A stretch of DNA of 64,000 nucleotides from Leptospiraceae bacterium (lineage in GTDB: Bacteria; Spirochaetota; Leptospiria; Leptospirales; Leptonemataceae), in the NCBI GenBank assembly GCA_040217195.1, contig JAVJNR010000007.1:1-64000 (forward strand), in the 5' to 3' direction. A program made the position numbers and the translations under genes. Numbering within the stretch: the first letter of the stretch is position 1; every line of letters starts with the position of its first letter. This document shows, piece by piece, positions 1 to 6,589 of this stretch. A model generated the notes under the pieces. It saw only the letters and a list, made by a program, of their open reading frames with translations. It did no database searches and had not been told where the DNA came from.

Positions 1-217
1 TACAACGTCAGTGCTACCGTTATGCGTGGATATGTAGAAATACGAGCCCATGATTGTTGCATCCGTGGAGCCGGAGGTCTATATCATGCTACGTAGTTAT
101 TGGATCAAGTTTAAATTATGGAAGATTTATTTGTAACGGAAGGTCAGTTCTGGCAGAACGTTGCATCTCTGCGGCTACTCAAAAAAGAGACAACCGAAGG
201 TTGTCCACCTATCTTTC

Positions 218-369
218 AACATCGAACCTGGCCTTTCAATTGAGCGCCCTGGGGCCCTCCTGAGTTAGCGACAGGAAGTCGCGCCCCCGCCGCTCGATCC
301 ACGGAAGGATCGCGTGGCGGGCAAGGGAGGGTCCCAGGGCGGAAAATGGTAAGCTGTCATGGAGATGTG
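218..369. repeat. Structured repeat, copy 1 of 5 (branched hairpin, attC-like geometry)
   Basis: Ends AACATCGAA...AAGCTGTCATGGAGATGTG; stem 245-260/326-341; hairpins GCGAC-AGGAA-GTCGC (268-282) and 286-321. Confidence 0.9.
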
Positions 370-371
370 CG

Positions 372-400
372 TTGACCATACGGGCCGCTATGGGTATTTT
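372..400 (+). promoter_or_regulatory. Putative sigma70 promoter for a leaderless vapBC transcript
   Basis: TTGACC-N17-TATTTT-N6-ATG(407); no Shine-Dalgarno before the ATG. Confidence 0.55.
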
Positions 401-406
401 TCCCAT

Positions 407-595
407 ATGAAGACTACGGTGGATATTGACGATGATCTGCTGCGGGAGGTGAGCAAAATCTATAAGTTCCGAACTAAACGGGAAACCATTGAAGCAGGCT
501 TGAGAGAACTGATCGCTGCACATAAGCGTAAGGCCCTGGCTGGAATGTTTGGCCAGCAGAAGAACATTCAAGCCGCCCCCCGTAGGCCTGCTTGA
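407..595 (+). CDS. vapB: VapB-family antitoxin
   Basis: MKTTVDIDDDLLRE...TKRETIEAGLRELI pattern; overlaps the downstream PIN gene. Start moved from 359 to ATG 407. Confidence 0.85.
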   Translation: MKTTVDIDDDLLREVSKIYKFRTKRETIEAGLRELIAAHKRKALAGMFGQQKNIQAAPRRPA

Positions 596-939
596 TACTG
601 GCGGACACCAGTATCTTTGTAGAATTCTTTCGGGGCAATCCCGGCGTTCAGAATCTGCAGGACGCCTTAGAGCAGGACGGAATCATCCTACATTCCCTGG
701 TTGAACTGGAGCTGGCACTCGGTGGTATTAAACCAGAAATTGCAGAACTCATGCAGGTGCTTCCCCGTTGCCAATCCATACCTGATTCAACGCTTCTGGA
801 GTTTATTGGGATCCGAAACCTTGCAGGAAAAGGAATCGGCTACGTAGACTGCCAGATTCTTGCAACCTGTCTGGCCCATGGCTATCAACTCTGGACTATG
901 GATAGAAAGCTGGATCGGCTCTGGAAGAGCATGGTATAG
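592..939 (+). CDS. vapC: PIN-domain VapC toxin
   Basis: MILADTSIFV, VELELALG, GIGYVDCQIL and LWTMDRKL PIN motifs; TTG start overlaps the vapB stop. Confidence 0.9.
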   Translation: MILADTSIFVEFFRGNPGVQNLQDALEQDGIILHSLVELELALGGIKPEIAELMQVLPRCQSIPDSTLLEFIGIRNLAGKGIGYVDCQILATCLAHGYQLWTMDRKLDRLWKSMV

Positions 940-986
940 TGAAAGCTTCTCGCTTCAAAAATTCGGAGGCTTCCCACCAACCCCGC

Positions 987-1137
987 CACATCGAAAATGG
1001 CCTTGCGAAAAGTGGCCTGGGGTCCGTCCGAGCAAGCGACAGGAAGTCGCGCTCCCGACGCTCATTCCAGGGACGGATTGCGCGTCGGGCGAAGGCGGAC
1101 CACAGGCCACAAATCGGAAAGCTGTCATGGAGATGTG
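987..1137. repeat. Structured repeat, copy 2
   Basis: CACATCGAA...AAGCTGTCATGGAGATGTG (1119-1137); same branched fold as copy 1. Confidence 0.9.
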
Positions 1138-1150
1138 CTTCTAACCCCGC

Positions 1151-1305
1151 CATATCGAACATGGCCTTACTTGCAGTGGGGCGGCGCCCTTTCCGAGCAC
1201 GGCAACACGAAGTTGCCGTCCGCGCGCTCGGTCCAGGGATGGACCGCGTGCGCGGCGAGGATGGGGTGCCGCCCCGTATCAAAAGTAAGCTGTCATGGAG
1301 ATGTG
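1151..1305. repeat. Structured repeat, copy 3
   Basis: CATATCGAA...AAGCTGTCATGGAGATGTG (1287-1305); 13-nt linker from copy 2. Confidence 0.9.
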
Positions 1306-1318
1306 CTTCCAACCCCGC

Positions 1319-1471
1319 CACATCGAACAGGGAAGCTTTGCAAATCCGGCGGGGGAGGTGCCTGAGCTAGCAACACGAAGTTGCGACTCGGCCACTCGAT
1401 CCAAGGATGGATCGCGTGGCCGACGAAGGCACCGCCCCCGCCGAACATCCCAAGGGTTTTGTGGAGATGTG
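1319..1471. repeat. Structured repeat, copy 4 (divergent outer stem)
   Basis: CACATCGAA...GGAGATGTG; stem 1347-1362/1428-1443; GCAAC-ACGAA-GTTGC hairpin. Confidence 0.85.
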
Positions 1472-1519
1472 GGACTTCTATTGAACCAGAGACAACCGAA
1501 GGTTGTCCACCTACCTTTC

Positions 1520-1722
1520 CACATCGAACCTGGCCTTACTTGTAGTGGCGGGGGCCTGTCCGAGAGCGGGACAGGCTCAACTGAAAGGCGAGAGTATTCC
1601 AAAAGGCAACCTGCAGTTGCCTTCCGATTCACCCGCGCTCCCAACGCTCGACCCAGGGAGGGGTCGCGCGTTGGGCGAGGACTGGCCCCCGCCACACATG
1701 AGTAAGCTGTCATGGAGATGTG
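1520..1722. repeat. Structured repeat, copy 5 (with ~50-nt internal expansion)
   Basis: CACATCGAA...AAGCTGTCATGGAGATGTG (1704-1722); abuts the tRNA 3' end. Confidence 0.9.
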
Positions 1723-1794
1723 GGCCCAGTGGGACTTGAACCCACGACCAATGGATTATGAGTCCACTGCTCTAACCAACTGAGCTACAGGCCC
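1721..1794 (-). tRNA. tRNA with CAT anticodon, most likely tRNA-Ile2 (lysidine type); CCA not encoded
   Basis: Minus strand reads GGGCCTGTAGCTCAGTTGGTTAGAGCAGTGGACTCATAATCCATTGGTCGTGGGTTCAAGTCCCACTGGGCCCA; full cloverleaf; G1-C72 paired, so not the initiator. Confidence 0.93.
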
Positions 1795-1962
1795 GATTTC
1801 TTACATCAGAAACCTGCCGGGCAGGCCTCTGTAACGCAAATGTTCTGTGGCCGGGCTACAAATCCAGTAGAAAACGCTTGAACCGGACCAAAAGGGATGG
1901 TGTCTAAGTATCCAAGAAGGGTTGCCCCTGCACAGACAGGGTCAGCCAGATAGGAGACAGAT

Positions 1963-2502
1963 ATGTCCTTGATTCAAATCATGCGGCGCTGGAAGACCAT
2001 AGATCGAAGCTACAGGGATGAGTGCTACAGACTGGTAGCTGTATCCCTGCTGGTGCTGGCTGTCGTGGCCGGTTGTTCTAGCGCCTCCGAGGTTTCCGGA
2101 GCGGAAGAGTTCGAAGGCTGGCGAGAAGAGGAAGGTTTCGATGTTTTTTACATCCGCCGATCCGGCCATGCATCGGAAAAGGCCATAGAGACCGAGAACA
2201 CAGCTATGCTGCAATCCACTTGTATGGAAGCAGCCAGACTCCAGGCCATGGACCTTATTATCCGTAAGATGGTTGGAGAAACTATAGAGGCCCAATCCGG
2301 AATGATCGATGGGCAGACTACAGGTCTGGCCGTAAACTCCATTCGAAATGGAATCATCAAAGGCGATGTGGTACAGAAGGAATGCGCCGACCGTGGCGAA
2401 GATAAAGACTGGGATACCTGCGAATGTGTTTTCTTCATAAAAGGCAAAGGCCTGCGCAAGAAAGTAGAACTGGAAGTCTCGAAAGTCGTTTCCGGTGGAT
2501 AA
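1963..2502 (+). CDS. LipL21-like lipoprotein
   Basis: Lipobox VAGC; FEGW, AMLQSTCMEAARLQ, KMVGETIE and WDTCEC match Leptospira LipL21 blocks as recalled. Confidence 0.8.
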   Translation: MSLIQIMRRWKTIDRSYRDECYRLVAVSLLVLAVVAGCSSASEVSGAEEFEGWREEEGFDVFYIRRSGHASEKAIETENTAMLQSTCMEAARLQAMDLIIRKMVGETIEAQSGMIDGQTTGLAVNSIRNGIIKGDVVQKECADRGEDKDWDTCECVFFIKGKGLRKKVELEVSKVVSGG

Positions 2503-3400
2503 TCCCCGATCCGTGTCTGAACAACCAAATTTAGAAACAGAACAGAGCCCGCATCCTCCCCCGGATGCGGGTGCCCTGCCCCGCCTGGCAGCGCCGGAAC
2601 TGCGCCCATTTATCAAGCACTATCGCCTTCAGGAAGTAGACATTGACACAAGAGAGCGATGGGCTCCGGCCTGGACCCAGACCTTCATACTTCTGAACTA
2701 CGGGGAGATCTACCATATGCAGGCTCTAAAAGGTCCCTTGATCCAGGGTTACCCGGCCATGCTGGCAGGAATTCGCACGGTACCCGCCATCGGAGCCAAA
2801 CCATTCATTCGAATGCGATCCCTGGCCATAGAACTTCAGCCTTTCGCAGCCTTCAGCTGGATCGGGGCACAGGTTTCACAAATCATTGACGGAAGCCTGG
2901 ATGCTGCCCCACTCATGCCCGGCGCCCAAAGTTTGATTGAGGAGATTTCTAATTTGCCGTTCGAGGCGAAGTGTAGTCGTCTGGACGAGTATTTTAGGCC
3001 GCTAATTAAAAACATTGATCTCTATGAACATAAGGCCCTCAGGAATGCTCTTAAAGTTCTGGAAGAACCCGCGGACCGACAATCCATCGAAGCGCGCATC
3101 GAAAGAGCTGGCCTGAGTAGTCGACATTTTCGCAGGCTATTCAAACAGGTTATGGGCGTTTCGCCCAAGCTATACTCTCGAATCTTGAGAATGGAACGGG
3201 TGCTTCAGGAATTCCACAGTAATCCGGATCTAAACTATCTGGAAAGAGTCCATGGTTTCTATGATCAGTCCCATTTTATTCGGGAATTCAAGCGATTTAC
3301 GAATGTGACTCCGAGGGCACTAATCAAAGCATTCAAAATGCAGGCCGTCCGCCAGGTACATTCGAATCTAGAGTCCGGACCCAATATCGAAGAGTTTTGA
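2495..3400 (+). CDS. AraC-family transcriptional regulator
   Basis: C-terminal GLSSRHFRRLFKQVMGVSPK and GFYDQSHFIREFKRFT HTH motifs. Confidence 0.9.
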   Translation: MDNPRSVSEQPNLETEQSPHPPPDAGALPRLAAPELRPFIKHYRLQEVDIDTRERWAPAWTQTFILLNYGEIYHMQALKGPLIQGYPAMLAGIRTVPAIGAKPFIRMRSLAIELQPFAAFSWIGAQVSQIIDGSLDAAPLMPGAQSLIEEISNLPFEAKCSRLDEYFRPLIKNIDLYEHKALRNALKVLEEPADRQSIEARIERAGLSSRHFRRLFKQVMGVSPKLYSRILRMERVLQEFHSNPDLNYLERVHGFYDQSHFIREFKRFTNVTPRALIKAFKMQAVRQVHSNLESGPNIEEF

Positions 3401-3514
3401 TTTCGCAATTCCGGGTCTCAAAAATTATTTGAAAGCTTCAGCGGTTTTTGAATCGATTCAACTGTTAGTTCTAGCATGCTGCCGGGTGCCCTGATCCGGG
3501 CATCGCCTTTGTTT

Positions 3515-4348
3515 TCAATTTCTTTTAAATAGTTCATCCCCCCTGGATTTCATAAACTGATACACTGCAGGAGCAGATGCTTTTGGAATTCCACCTCCAT
3601 GGGGATTGTCGTTTGAGTCCGGAACGATGTATTCTTCACCATCAATCCAATTGCTGGCCAGTGCGTAGGTAGAATGATCCAGATGCAATGAGCCAACAAC
3701 TTCCAGGTCTGAGTTGTACACTGTTATTCTGGTCTCTCCCGGATCAATCCAGACCGCAGGGACTGTACCCAGGCTAAGGAAGTGGAGCAGGTAGGTTACA
3801 ATAAAGATCATTCTACCACCAAAGGTTGGTCTGCGAAAGGTGGGCTCATGAAGACCAACTGCCAGATAGGGCCTGCCAAAGTCATTTAGGTATAGCTGAT
3901 CAGTATTCGCATCGTAGTGAAAGAGACGTGCAAAGTCCCCATAACCGCCAGATTCAAGATATTTTACAGCCTGATAGATACCACGAGGGCTTTGTAAGTC
4001 CTGTGCAGCAATAGCCTCTTCATTCATAGCTGGTCTCAGACCGTTGTGTAAAATCAGATTGGCCGCTTTTTGCAGATCCACAGGTGTTCTTCCTTCAACA
4101 GACAGATCTCCTACATGATGCCCGCTGTACTCCTCTCTAAATTGAGCATTCCCGGCGCAATACAATCGATACATCAGTCCGGATTTCTCCACACGGTAGT
4201 TATAAAACCCCGCGAAGACTACATCTCTTTGCGAAATGCTTTCCTTTGAGCGAGCATGATCGATTCCCACCGAAGGCTCCACATAATGCGTCCTGCAGAA
4301 GGAACAGAACAGAACGATCAGAACTGAGGGAAAAAGATAGCGAACCAT
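3515..4348 (-). CDS. Putative lipoprotein, family A copy 1
   Basis: Signal peptide ending in Cys; clear paralog of 5599..6435. Confidence 0.75.
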   Translation of the reverse strand: MVRYLFPSVLIVLFCSFCRTHYVEPSVGIDHARSKESISQRDVVFAGFYNYRVEKSGLMYRLYCAGNAQFREEYSGHHVGDLSVEGRTPVDLQKAANLILHNGLRPAMNEEAIAAQDLQSPRGIYQAVKYLESGGYGDFARLFHYDANTDQLYLNDFGRPYLAVGLHEPTFRRPTFGGRMIFIVTYLLHFLSLGTVPAVWIDPGETRITVYNSDLEVVGSLHLDHSTYALASNWIDGEEYIVPDSNDNPHGGGIPKASAPAVYQFMKSRGDELFKRN

Positions 4349-5598: not shown

Positions 5599-6435
5599 CT
5601 ATTTTGAGAATAATCCGGAGCCCTCGGAGTTCATAAAATCATACATCCCCTGAGCAGAGCGTTCATGAATACCTCCTGCATGGGGATTGCCACCTCCTGG
5701 TGGCATTACGAAGCCTTCCTCACTATCGACCCACACCGCGCTGAGCGCATACGTGCCGTGCTCATACCGAGTGCTTGCAACCACATCCAGGTTCCTGTCA
5801 TATACGATGATGAAGGTTTCAGCAGGCTCTTTCCATACTGCCGGAACAAGTCCCAGGGTTAGTATGCTAATATAGCCTGTCATCAAACCGGAAAACCCCC
5901 AGCCAAAGGATACTTTCCTGAAAGTAGGCTGATGGCGACCCACCGCAAGAAAAGGTCGACCAAAATCGTTCAGGTACAATTGATCCTCCTGTCCATCGTA
6001 TTCGAATAAGAGGGCGAAATCTTCATAGGAACCGGATTTGAGGGTTTGGATGGCCTGATACACTCCACGAGCCGATTTTAGATCCAATCGAGCAATGGCT
6101 TGCGGACTCATGGCGGGCCTGAGCCCGGAAGCAAGAACTAACCGGGCTACTTTTTCTGTTTCTACAGGAATCCTCCGCTGCACAGGTAGCCTGGAAACAT
6201 GGTCTTCCGGGAATTTGCGAACAAACTGGTCATTTCCGGTGGAGTATAGTCGGAAAAAGCTACCATCTAGATAGATATCATAGTTATAGAATCCAGCATA
6301 TGCAATATCTGATTCTTCTATCGGTTCCTTCAAAAAGAGAGTTTCTTGGTCAACTCCTGGCTCTAAATACGTCGTCGCACAACCCAGCACACAAAAAAGA
6401 AGAACAGCCCACACACCCTTTCCAGAAAAACCCAT
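5599..6435 (-). CDS. Putative lipoprotein, family A copy 2
   Basis: Lipobox VLGC; shares AGFYNY, GLRPAM, DQLYLNDFGRP and NPH.GGI with copy 1. Start set to ATG 6435. Confidence 0.75.
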   Translation of the reverse strand: MGFSGKGVWAVLLFCVLGCATTYLEPGVDQETLFLKEPIEESDIAYAGFYNYDIYLDGSFFRLYSTGNDQFVRKFPEDHVSRLPVQRRIPVETEKVARLVLASGLRPAMSPQAIARLDLKSARGVYQAIQTLKSGSYEDFALLFEYDGQEDQLYLNDFGRPFLAVGRHQPTFRKVSFGWGFSGLMTGYISILTLGLVPAVWKEPAETFIIVYDRNLDVVASTRYEHGTYALSAVWVDSEEGFVMPPGGGNPHAGGIHERSAQGMYDFMNSEGSGLFSK

Positions 6436-6589
6436 GATGCAGTTGAACCGATTCGCAGGATATGTCAATGCTTTCTATTCTCTTTAATAGCCTCGTTATA
6501 TATATTCTCTCTTTTCTTCTATCTATTTTCTATTCATTTGGTCTGGATTATTCCGTTGACTCCTCCTCTACTTCTCCCTGTGATAGAAA

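What the first reader, a model, noticed from the sequence alone, without database searches (positions are those of the whole stretch)
218..1722. Array of five structure-conserved, sequence-diverged branched hairpin elements
Seen: copies lie at 218-369, 987-1137, 1151-1305, 1319-1471 and 1520-1722, and all fold the same way. (i) Terminal stem CACATC/GATGTG followed by GAA; AAGCTGTCATGGAGATGTG is exact in 4 of 5 copies. (ii) A ~16-bp GC stem with a different sequence in each copy (e.g. CGCCCTGGGGCCCTCC/GGAGGGTCCCAGGGCG versus CGGCGGGGGAGGTGCC/GGCACCGCCCCCGCCG). (iii) A three-way junction entered by YGAG and left by CRAR. (iv) Arm GCRAC-A(G/C)GAA-GTYGC in copies 1-4. (v) An arm made of an 8-bp stem, an invariant T.C mismatch, a 6-bp stem and an ANGGAN loop. 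The 8-bp stems covary: CCCGCCGC/GTGGCGGG, CCCGACGC/GCGTCGGG, CCGCGCGC/GTGCGCGG, TCGGCCAC/GTGGCCGA, CCCAACGC/GCGTTGGG. The wobble pairs are G.T on the + strand, so + is the favoured folding strand. Inference: selection acts on a folded single-stranded DNA or RNA shape. I do not recognise a named family.
Basis: partly seen in the sequence, partly recalled or inferred. Interest (0 to 1): 0.92.

Follow-up and report, generated by a model that had tools for sequence, protein, structure and literature searches.

The report
Y-shaped repeat modules behind tRNA genes
Five copies of an uncatalogued, strongly folded 150-base DNA repeat lie between a toxin-antitoxin cassette and a tRNA gene; the family keeps its Y shape while its sequence drifts, and probably marks where small pieces of accessory DNA are slotted in.

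Summary
The five copies (217-370, 986-1138, 1150-1306, 1318-1472, 1519-1723, + strand) fold alike and covary far beyond shuffles. The + strand is the one that folds.

They belong to a family absent from Rfam 15. Its core is a 95-nt three-way junction; hairpin 2 is 8 bp, a T.C mismatch, 6 bp and a C-ANGGAN-G hexaloop. The core occurs in 25 of 42 genomes of one Leptospirales family and in 1 of 150 other genomes of the phylum.

In this genus extra stems wrap the core. It abuts, antisense, the 3' ends of tRNA-Met(CAT), tRNA-Val, tRNA-Ser and tmRNA. Copies stack and form chimeras. Repeats of tRNA/tmRNA ends bracket them, and they separate cassettes (vapBC here) that differ between species.

- **Best reading (0.4):** a mobile junction module whose folded strand is a protein-recognition signal, working like integron attC or CTX attP(+) hairpins. 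The enzyme is unknown. It is not an attC.
- **Main rival (0.3):** an RNA decoy for CsrA. Both hairpins carry CsrA's ANGGAN motif, as do this genome's flaB leaders.

No RNA data were available. The scan earlier noted analogous, non-homologous modules behind tRNA genes in other phyla.

The parts
189..205 (+). Small hairpin GACAACC-GAA-GGTTGTC, followed by the linker CACCTATCTTT (206-216), that precedes copy 1. On the - strand it reads as a terminator-like hairpin with a T-run (206-188).
   Evidence: Sequence; terminator-like site on -. The same hairpin+linker, with covarying stems, precedes most full-length copies in the genus.
217..370 (+). Copy 1 of the element (core 246-340).
   Evidence: 160.6 bits; core 95.8 bits.
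372..400 (+). Promoter-like site TTGACC-17-TATTTT of the vapBC cassette, starting 2 nt after copy 1.
   Evidence: a consensus match only. The junction element-GTTGACC...vapB recurs in G002, G004 and G005.
407..595 (+). vapB antitoxin gene (cassette cargo).
   Evidence: PF09957, 57.1 bits.
592..939 (+). vapC PIN-domain toxin gene (cassette cargo).
   Evidence: PF01850, 44 bits.
966..984 (-). Terminator-like hairpin with a T-run on the - strand, just beyond copy 2.
986..1138 (+). Copy 2 (core 1014-1108).
   Evidence: (155 bits).
1150..1306 (+). Copy 3 (core 1179-1274).
   Evidence: (152.7 bits).
1318..1472 (+). Copy 4 (core 1348-1442). Its 3' flank, 1473-1487, resembles part of the tRNA T-arm in reverse complement.
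   Evidence: (146.2 bits); flank read (the resemblance is my reading and was not scored).
1491..1507 (+). Second copy of the small hairpin GACAACC-GAA-GGTTGTC, followed by the linker (1508-1518).
1519..1723 (+). Copy 5, with a ~52-nt insertion in place of the simple hairpin 1. Hairpin 2 lies at 1634-1678.
   Evidence: (130.7 bits).
1720..1794 (-). tRNA gene with anticodon CAT. Its 3' end is overlapped by the end of copy 5.
   Evidence: ARAGORN; Rfam tRNA 73 bits. The same junction occurs in G002, G004, G005 and G006.

Best explanation
The five copies belong to a repeat family found almost only in one family of uncultured Leptospirales.

Anatomy. The constant part is a 95-nt Y-shaped core with four pieces:
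- a closing stem of free sequence;
- a junction entered by YGAG and left by CRAR;
- hairpin 1, with an AGGAN, ANGGAN or ACGAN loop;
- hairpin 2: 8 bp, a T.C mismatch, 6 bp and a C-ANGGAN-G hexaloop.
In this genus the core is wrapped in two more stems (CCACATC/GATGTGG and CATGGCC/GTCATG, with unpaired GAA/GA between them). A small triloop hairpin precedes it.

Shown. It is a repeated DNA module that moves or recombines.
- It lies with its 3' end against the 3' end of an opposite-strand gene. Here that gene is the tRNA with anticodon CAT; elsewhere it is tRNA-Val, tRNA-Ser, tmRNA, a lipoprotein gene or a flagellar gene.
- At tRNA-Ser and tmRNA, direct repeats of the last 16-17 nt of those genes bracket it.
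- It stacks in tandem and forms chimeras.
- It separates accessory cassettes that differ between species (vapBC here).

Inferred. The conserved shape is the recognition signal of the protein that inserts or recombines the module. That protein would read the folded + strand, much as integron attC sites and the CTX-phage attP(+) hairpin are read as folded single strands. The mismatch and the loops would give strand and shape specificity. Successive insertions at the same tRNA end would build the array. The enzyme acts in trans and is not identified.
For: Structure under selection, on the + strand.

A family rather than a local duplication:
- 7 full copies at 3 loci plus core-only copies at 2 more loci in this genome.
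- All 6 other genomes of the genus have it.
- The core occurs in 25 of 42 genomes and 13 of 21 genera of the family, against 1 of 150 other genomes of the phylum.
- It occurs in only 2 of 80 metagenome loci. Those 2 score the same as copies in relative G002; the other 78 were chance matches of the 17-mer and gave 0.

Junctions with tRNA-type genes:
- The element's end overlaps the tRNA 3' end by 3 nt at tRNA-Met (G000, G002, G004, G006) and at tRNA-Val (G000, G002).
- The core starts 1-2 nt from tRNA-Ser.
- The tmRNA loci of G000, G002, G004 and G005 carry cores.

Footprints of site-specific insertion:
- Four direct copies of the tmRNA's last 17 nt, with cores between them.
- Two [core + last 16 nt of tRNA-Ser] units 290 nt apart in G002.

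Cassette behaviour:
- The content between copies at the tRNA-Met locus differs among G000, G004 and G005.
- A second hot spot, between aroC and flagellar genes, holds 2 copies in G002, 6 copies and 10 kb in G005, and none in G000.
- In another genus (G031) cores head a row of orphan toxin/immunity cassettes.

Recombinant copies: the G006 tRNA-Met copy has the 5' half of one type and the 3' half of another. Deletion derivatives occur at tRNA-Val.

Architecture: two short duplex boxes separated by unpaired bases, a stem of free sequence, and conserved mismatches. This is what folded-strand recombination sites look like (established knowledge on attC and CTX attP(+), recalled).
Against: - No recombinase or transposase lies next to any copy. 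0 of 57 flanking ORFs in other genera carry such a domain, and none lies in the genus loci read.
- This genome has no Y1 (IS200/REP-type) transposase hit (genome 93.7% complete).
- Its integron-like recombinase sits elsewhere, beside a different kind of site.
- The tRNA-Met array in the window shows no repeat of the tRNA end.
- Outside this genus the copies are not near tRNA genes. They lie mostly between housekeeping genes, as harmless REP-like repeats do.
- By GC skew and tRNA orientation, the three loci with full-length copies have the folding strand as leading-strand template. That is not where single-stranded DNA is most exposed.
- The invariant loop letters match the recognition motif of an RNA-binding protein (CsrA) rather than any known recombinase.
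Confidence: 0.4

Rival explanations
1. The folded + strand works as RNA: a decoy or docking platform for the global regulator CsrA. Each Y-shaped core would present two CsrA-type hairpin loops at a fixed distance, one for each face of a CsrA dimer. A row of units, transcribed from a neighbouring gene such as vapBC, would then act like a small CsrB/RsmZ-type sponge, or would recruit CsrA to that transcript. On this reading the mobility of the module is secondary.
For: - Hairpin 2 has an exact A-N-G-G-A-N hexaloop in 51 of 58 distinct two-hairpin cores and GGA in 55 of 58. Hairpin 1 has GGA in 45 of 58.
- In the strict whole-genome scan (10 hits), the first loop base was left free and is always A.
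- The fixed letters (A, G, G, A) and the free second and sixth letters match the ANGGAN hairpin-loop motif of RsmA/CsrA proteins (PMC3791407, passages read).
- Leptospira CsrA binds GGA hexaloops upstream of flaB genes. That paper says Leptospira genomes lack csrB/csrC homologues (PMC8668096, passages read).
- In this genome three of four flaB leaders carry a C-A(A/C)GGAG-G hexaloop over the ribosome-binding site.
- csrA is present.
- The strand that folds is the coding strand of vapBC and of the G031 cassettes.
Against: - No promoter or terminator of its own is seen, and no RNA data could be had.
- The unit's 3' end abuts the 3' end of opposite-strand genes. The terminator-like hairpins lie on the opposite strand, so the reverse complement is the strand surely transcribed.
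- Known CsrA binding explains neither the long GC-rich closing stems, nor the T.C mismatch, nor the constant 95-nt size.
- 13 of 58 hairpin-1 loops lack GGA.
- CsrA is in 39 of 42 genomes whether or not they hold the element, so co-occurrence says nothing.
Confidence: 0.3
2. A REP/ERIC-like intergenic repeat. Its only selected role would be as an RNA 3'-end structure: an exonuclease barrier, or an insulator that stops transcription running from one convergent gene (or an inserted cassette) into the next gene or tRNA.
For: - In other genera the copies lie almost always between convergent genes (upstream neighbour on the same strand in 22 of 23, downstream neighbour on the opposite strand in 16 of 24).
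- They often lie within 40 nt of a stop codon.
- In the window four units stand between the vapBC promoter and the tRNA it points at.
Against: A barrier needs only a stable stem. It does not explain invariant loop letters, the junction letters, the mismatch or the constant core length. No T-run follows the element on the + strand.
Confidence: 0.12
3. The copies are attC sites of the integron that this genome carries, that is, a detached cassette array (CALIN).
For: - The genome has an integron-like recombinase with cassettes.
- Across 42 genomes of the family, that recombinase and the core go together: 18 have both, 7 the core only, 4 the recombinase only, 13 neither.
- The architecture is cassette-like.
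Against: - The element has no paired AAC/GTT boxes at its base.
- The recombinase's own neighbours are a different ~250-nt site with GCATAAC...GTTATGC ends.
- In G005 the recombinase lies 2 Mb from the nearest copy.
- Three near-complete genomes of one genus have the core without the recombinase.
- Kin are not independent, and both features may simply track genome size.
Confidence: 0.04
4. A free-standing structured RNA gene of another kind (ribozyme, riboswitch-like sensor or retron-type template) that happens to be duplicated.
For: Strong covariation and conserved junction letters. There is no Rfam match, so an undescribed class is possible.
Against: - No conserved gene partner: 0 of 57 neighbours are shared, and I saw no reverse transcriptase gene next to the copies I read.
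- No promoter or terminator of its own.
- Copy number runs from 1 to 22 per genome, with no fixed locus outside the genus.
Confidence: 0.05

Closest known systems
Integron attC sites and cassette arrays without an integrase (CALINs; Cury et al. 2016, PMC4889954, listing and abstract seen)
   Same: Structure is conserved while sequence is free. One strand folds better than the other. Two short boxes at the base are separated by unpaired bases, with conserved non-paired bases. All sites in an array have one orientation and separate small cassettes, including toxin-antitoxin pairs.
   Different: There are no RYYYAAC/GTTRRRY boxes and no adjacent integron integrase. The most conserved part is the distal three-way junction, which in attC is the variable part. 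The arrays are anchored at tRNA/tmRNA 3' ends. The genome's own integron uses other sites.
CTX-phage attP(+) forked hairpin and other Xer-dependent integrating elements (recalled, not read here)
   Same: A folded single strand forms the recombination site. Integration at one chromosomal site builds tandem arrays. One end of each integrated unit keeps an inverted-repeat hairpin next to the junction.
   Different: The target here is a tRNA/tmRNA end, not dif. There is no phage genome. Xer involvement was not tested.
Tandem accretion of integrative elements and gene-less derivatives (CIMEs) at tRNA/tmRNA genes
   Same: Direct repeats of the tRNA-Ser and tmRNA 3' ends bracket small units stacked behind the gene.
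   Different: The units are only 0.15-0.4 kb and carry no integrase. Each carries a conserved folded core right at the junction. The tRNA-Met array shows no repeat of the tRNA end.
REP/BIME and REPIN repeats with their RAYT transposases; ERIC and Correia-type MITEs (PMC2817692 and PMC12306157 seen in a listing only)
   Same: These are intergenic, mostly between convergent genes, hairpin-forming, multi-copy, and recognised as folded DNA by a protein.
   Different: The element is 95-150 nt and branched, not a 20-40-nt hairpin. Copy number is low (1-22). Copies diverge strongly and keep pairing through compensating changes. This genome has no Y1/RAYT gene.
CsrB/CsrC/RsmX/Y/Z sponge RNAs of CsrA/RsmA
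   Same: Repeated hairpins present ANGGAN loops. Unit number varies and units lie in tandem.
   Different: There is no own promoter or terminator. The units are embedded in long GC-rich stems and a three-way junction. They spread to many loci and abut gene 3' ends in antisense. Binding was not tested.

Membership tests
Any Rfam 15 family | Score at or above the family's gathering threshold | tested here: not met
   Only tRNA passes in 64 kb. At E<=10 over bases 1-2000 the best non-tRNA match on the element is skipping-rope, 17.8 bits against a gathering score of 36.7.
Integron attC site | Paired R''/R' boxes RYYYAAC...GTTRRRY at the base of the hairpin | tested here: not met
   The base is CCACATC...GATGTGG. 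GAAC on the 5' side is unpaired, and there is no GTT on the 3' side. The consensus is recalled.
Integron attC site | Integron integrase (TIGR02249 above cut-off) in the genome, next to the array | tested here: not met
   The best protein scores 182.7 bits against a cut-off of 265 (98.3 bits piecewise). It lies on another contig beside other sites.
Integron attC site | One strand folds better than the other; structure conserved, sequence free; sites separate cassettes in one orientation | tested here: met
REP/REPIN with RAYT | Y1 (HUH) transposase gene in the genome | tested here: not met
   PF01797: 0 matches in G000, which is 93.7% complete.
REP/REPIN with RAYT | Short (20-40 nt) imperfect palindromes in high copy number | tested here: not met
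   The core is a 95-nt branched structure with 1-22 copies per genome.
Integrative elements at tRNA/tmRNA genes (tandem accretion, CIMEs) | Direct repeats of the 3' end of the target gene flank each unit | tested here: inconclusive
   Met at tmRNA (4 copies of 17 nt) and at tRNA-Ser of G002 (2 copies of 16 nt). Not met at the window's tRNA-Met array.
Integrative elements at tRNA/tmRNA genes (tandem accretion, CIMEs) | A tyrosine or serine integrase in at least some units | tested here: not met
   None in the arrays read. The 4 tyrosine recombinase genes of G000 lie elsewhere. Serine recombinases were not searched.
CsrA/RsmA sponge RNA | Several ANGGA(N) motifs in hairpin loops | tested here: met
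   51 of 58 exact hexaloops in hairpin 2; GGA in 45 of 58 hairpin-1 loops. Motif taken from PMC3791407.
CsrA/RsmA sponge RNA | Transcribed as a discrete RNA with its own promoter and terminator | tested here: inconclusive
   No promoter-like or + strand terminator-like site at the units (a simple consensus scan). No RNA run listed.
CsrA/RsmA sponge RNA | Binds CsrA and relieves its targets | not testable with these tools
   Needs EMSA/ITC or CLIP.
Intrinsic terminator | GC-rich hairpin followed by a T-run on the transcribed strand | tested here: not met
   No T-run follows the element on +. The T-runs follow the separate small hairpins on the - strand.

The most novel reading that the evidence does not exclude
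The module is a mobile CsrA decoy. It would be a self-spreading 95-nt RNA clamp that presents two flaB-leader-like ANGGAN hexaloops to one CsrA dimer. Accessory cassettes (toxin-antitoxin, toxin-immunity) would carry it, and it would park behind tRNA genes. Incoming DNA would then tune, or escape, the host's global translational regulator. This would be the first RNA antagonist of CsrA in the FliW-using spirochaetes, and the first one shown to travel as a repeat.
Probability: 0.25. Interest if true: 0.85.

Novelty: new variant of a known kind. Interest (0 to 1): 0.62.

Why it matters
The case is unusually clean. A non-coding element is held by shape rather than sequence: the core keeps 95 nt, one mismatch and four loop letters, while 21 of 36 base pairs swap on both sides across one genus.

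If the shape is a recombination signal, it points to an unknown enzyme that reads folded DNA and builds integron-like cassette rows at tRNA and tmRNA genes. The genome that holds these rows also has a true integron with different sites.

If the shape is an RNA, it would give the CsrA system of spirochaetes its missing RNA partner.

Either way, the covariance models made here give a direct handle for finding the partner protein and for annotating accessory-gene hot spots in this uncultured clade. Earlier notes of this scan describe analogous but non-homologous folded modules behind tRNA genes in Patescibacteria and Clostridia, so this may be one instance of a wider, undescribed habit.

Tried and rejected
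- **Rfam 15**, at gathering scores and at E<=10: nothing but tRNA.
- **Expression:** no RNA holder was listed for window 1-3400.
- **Viral contigs:** the 19-mer gave 0 matches.
- **Metagenome contigs:** my 17-mer was too short. It gave 119+ loci, nearly all chance. Only 2 of the 80 loci fetched hold a real core, with the same scores as copies in G002. The single scan was thus largely wasted. It serves only as a specificity control (0 hits in the other 78 loci).
- **Y1 transposase:** none.
- **Integron integrase:** below cut-off, and located elsewhere.
- **CsrA co-occurrence:** uninformative, since 39 of 42 genomes have it.
- **T-runs after the outermost stem on either strand:** the fold of the flanks was too noisy, and only 16 of 61 copies were usable. 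No signal.
- **Neighbour orientation:** 'upstream gene on the same strand' in 22 of 23 first looked like evidence for + strand transcription. It only restates that the copies lie between convergent genes, so I do not use it that way.
- **Replication strand:** full-length copies lie on the presumed leading-strand template at 3 of 3 loci. The tRNA-Ser core and one tmRNA core do not. There are too few loci to count.
- **Outer stem copied from the tRNA** (a lead from earlier notes): seen only for the tmRNA-side core, whose 3' strand resembles the tmRNA T-arm. Not seen at tRNA-Met, Val or Ser.
- **Group II intron domain V, hammerhead core, retron layout:** compared by eye with recalled consensus features. 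No fit. Not scored.
- **Literature:** four searches found no description of this element. Their terms were Leptospirales/repeat/tRNA/hairpin; CALIN/attC/integron/Spirochaetes; Leptospira/repetitive extragenic/stem-loop/intergenic; and tmRNA/tandem/integrative element/direct repeat/tRNA gene/miniature. Subscription journals are not covered.
- **Earlier findings, look-up by sequence:** none.
Full report
**The observation**

The window begins a contig of a 4.61-Mb, 10-contig genome. The five copies are at the stated places and fold as described. A covariance model built from them (R1) delimits them as 217-370, 986-1138, 1150-1306, 1318-1472 and 1519-1723.

Copy 5 folds at -110.9 kcal/mol against -75.8 +/- 4.7 for shuffles (z -7.4). 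The 19-mer at the 3' end is exact in 4 of 5 copies. Rfam 15 recognises only the tRNA at 1720-1794 on the minus strand.

**Is the structure selected, and on which strand?**

I aligned 18 full-length copies from five genomes of the genus with MAFFT, so the alignment is not fitted to the fold.
- 94.4% of 646 cells pair, against 80.8% in column shuffles.
- 21 of 36 pairs change on both sides.
- No shuffle of 500 reaches any of the five measures.
- Sliding the partners by 1-3 columns gives at most 47% pairing.

The mismatch inside hairpin 2 is T.C in 17 of 18 copies and T.T in one.

Three results favour the + strand.
- Wobble pairs that work only on + outnumber those that work only on the reverse complement by 56 to 11.
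- The + strand has the lower energy in 53 of 61 distinct cores, 22 of 27 outside the genus.
- The genome holds 20 perfect hairpins of the form 8 bp-mismatch-6 bp-hexaloop. Ten carry GGA on the + strand of the element. Six of the others have a G.A mismatch and mostly CC-containing loops, which I take to be reverse complements of the same copies; I did not check their positions.

Copies are kin, so these counts overstate independence. The direction is the same in every genus.

**The family**

R1 finds two more full copies in this genome, at C2:499852-500004 and C1:1048024-1048177. It also finds core-only copies at C10:532917-533012 and on C3. All six other genomes of the genus have copies.

The part shared with other genera is a core of 93-99 nt in nearly all copies. 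A model of the core (R2) gives these counts:
- 25 of 42 genomes and 13 of 21 genera of the family, at 1-22 copies each;
- 1 of 150 other genomes sampled from the phylum. That weak hit (41.5 bits) has the same layout;
- none of 78 unrelated metagenome loci.

Across 58 distinct two-hairpin cores, hairpin 2 ends in an exact ANGGAN hexaloop in 51. Hairpin 1 carries GGA in 45.

**Where it sits**

In the genus, the 3' end of the element overlaps the 3' end of an opposite-strand tRNA by 3 nt. This holds at the CAT-anticodon tRNA in G000, G002, G004 and G006, and at tRNA-Val(GAC) in G000 and G002. Core-only copies start 1-2 nt from tRNA-Ser(GGA) and lie behind tmRNA in four genomes.

The same end also abuts the stop codon of a lipoprotein gene and of a flagellar gene. 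Over all distinct cores, the neighbour beyond the 3' end is on the opposite strand in 46 of 55.

Outside the genus there is no link to tRNA genes (1 of 27). There the copies lie between housekeeping genes, mostly convergent ones.

**Signs of movement and recombination**

- Behind tmRNA there are four direct copies of its last 17 nt, with cores between them. One 313-nt unit carries an inverted core at each end.
- In G002, two units of [core + last 16 nt of tRNA-Ser] lie 290 nt apart.
- The tRNA-Met locus differs between species. G000 has vapBC and five copies, probably continuing onto contig C1. G004 has vapBC, a coiled-coil gene and three copies. G005 has a lipoprotein gene and two to three copies.
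- A second hot spot, between aroC and flagellar genes, is empty of copies in G000. It holds vapBC flanked by two copies in G002, and six copies with 10 kb of small lipoprotein genes in G005.
- Element types, defined by the variable stem, are shared between species but sit beside different neighbours. One copy is a 5'/3' chimera of two types. Deletion derivatives occur.
- In G031, another genus, cores head each of a dozen orphan toxin/immunity cassettes carrying DUF637 and colicin-immunity domains.

**What does not fit a simple story**

- No recombinase or transposase is next to any copy.
- This genome has no Y1 transposase.
- Its four tyrosine recombinases lie elsewhere. One of them is integron-like: 182.7 bits to TIGR02249 against a cut-off of 265. 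It sits beside its own array of ~250-nt GCATAAC...GTTATGC sites.
- That recombinase co-occurs with the core across the family (both 18, core only 7, recombinase only 4, neither 13). It is never near a core, though, and kin are not independent.
- The strand that folds is not the strand that is surely transcribed. The tRNAs and the abutting genes are on the other strand, and so are the small terminator-like hairpins at 206-188 and 984-966.

**The CsrA lead**

ANGGAN in a hairpin loop is the recognition motif of the CsrA/RsmA family (PMC3791407, passages). Leptospira CsrA binds GGA hexaloops in flaB leaders, and that paper states Leptospira lacks csrB/csrC homologues (PMC8668096, passages).

Three of four flaB leaders of this genome carry C-A(A/C)GGAG-G hexaloops. 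That is the same motif as hairpin 2. csrA is present, but it is nearly universal in the family.

This makes an RNA decoy a serious rival. No transcription evidence could be had.

**Verdict**

That this is a selected, strand-specific fold of a new repeat family is shown. That the family is mobile or recombinogenic and marks cassette junctions is shown by comparative anatomy.

What the fold is for is inferred. I give 0.4 to a folded-strand recombination or insertion signal (works like attC or CTX attP(+), but is not a member of either). I give 0.3 to a CsrA-binding RNA, and 0.12 to a plain RNA 3'-end barrier. The rest goes to minor readings.

I did not test it.

Noticed in passing
G000 contig C6:1-4023 (locus L221), not in the window: An integron-like locus. 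A tyrosine recombinase at 2980-4023(-) scores just under the XerA/integron-integrase and TIGR02249 cut-offs. Next to it are three ~250-nt branched inverted-repeat sites (GCATAAC...GTTATGC ends) that separate small ORFs. The contig starts inside one such site. G005 has the same layout (L220).
   Followed up: partly
G000 C3:203199-203297, C1:74051-74149, C4:139851-139949 (flaB leaders): Three of four flaB genes have a C-A(A/C)GGAG-G hexaloop hairpin over the ribosome-binding site. This is the CsrA-type motif that also caps hairpin 2 of the element.
   Followed up: partly
L073 (G031:C69:438500-458499) and L074 (G031:C69:516000-528000): Two oppositely oriented rows of orphan toxin/immunity cassettes (DUF637, colicin-immunity, weak Imm32). 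Each is headed by a small hairpin plus a core. Open frames run through the cores.
   Followed up: partly
window 1720-1794 (-): The tRNA with anticodon CAT has a G1-C72 pair and no run of three G-C pairs in the anticodon stem. From memory it resembles tRNA-Ile2 (lysidine) rather than an initiator. This matters because VapC toxins of Leptospira are reported to cut initiator tRNA (recalled). Not tested.
   Followed up: no
window 1545-1606; also C2 near 500060-500130, L038:15933-16080, L025:1256-1425: A conserved ~52-nt insertion (CAGGCTCAACTG.AAGGCGAGAG...GGCAACC....GGTTGCC) replaces the simple hairpin 1 in a subset of copies in four genomes of the genus.
   Followed up: no
window 3515-4348 (-) and 5599-6468 (-): Two paralogous predicted lipoprotein genes (277 and 289 aa) with similar sequence throughout; no family assigned.
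   Followed up: no
G000 C4:598480-598880: Two more divergent cores, one with an insertion, lie among another short repeat (AAACCGCGAAGCGGTTTCTTCCATA...), far from any tRNA. The first was found only by the structural motif scan, not by R1.
   Followed up: partly
L048/L076 (G028:C108) and L051 (G009:C15): In another genus the copies stack just behind groEL: four in G028 and two in G009, the first on the strand opposite to groEL.
   Followed up: partly
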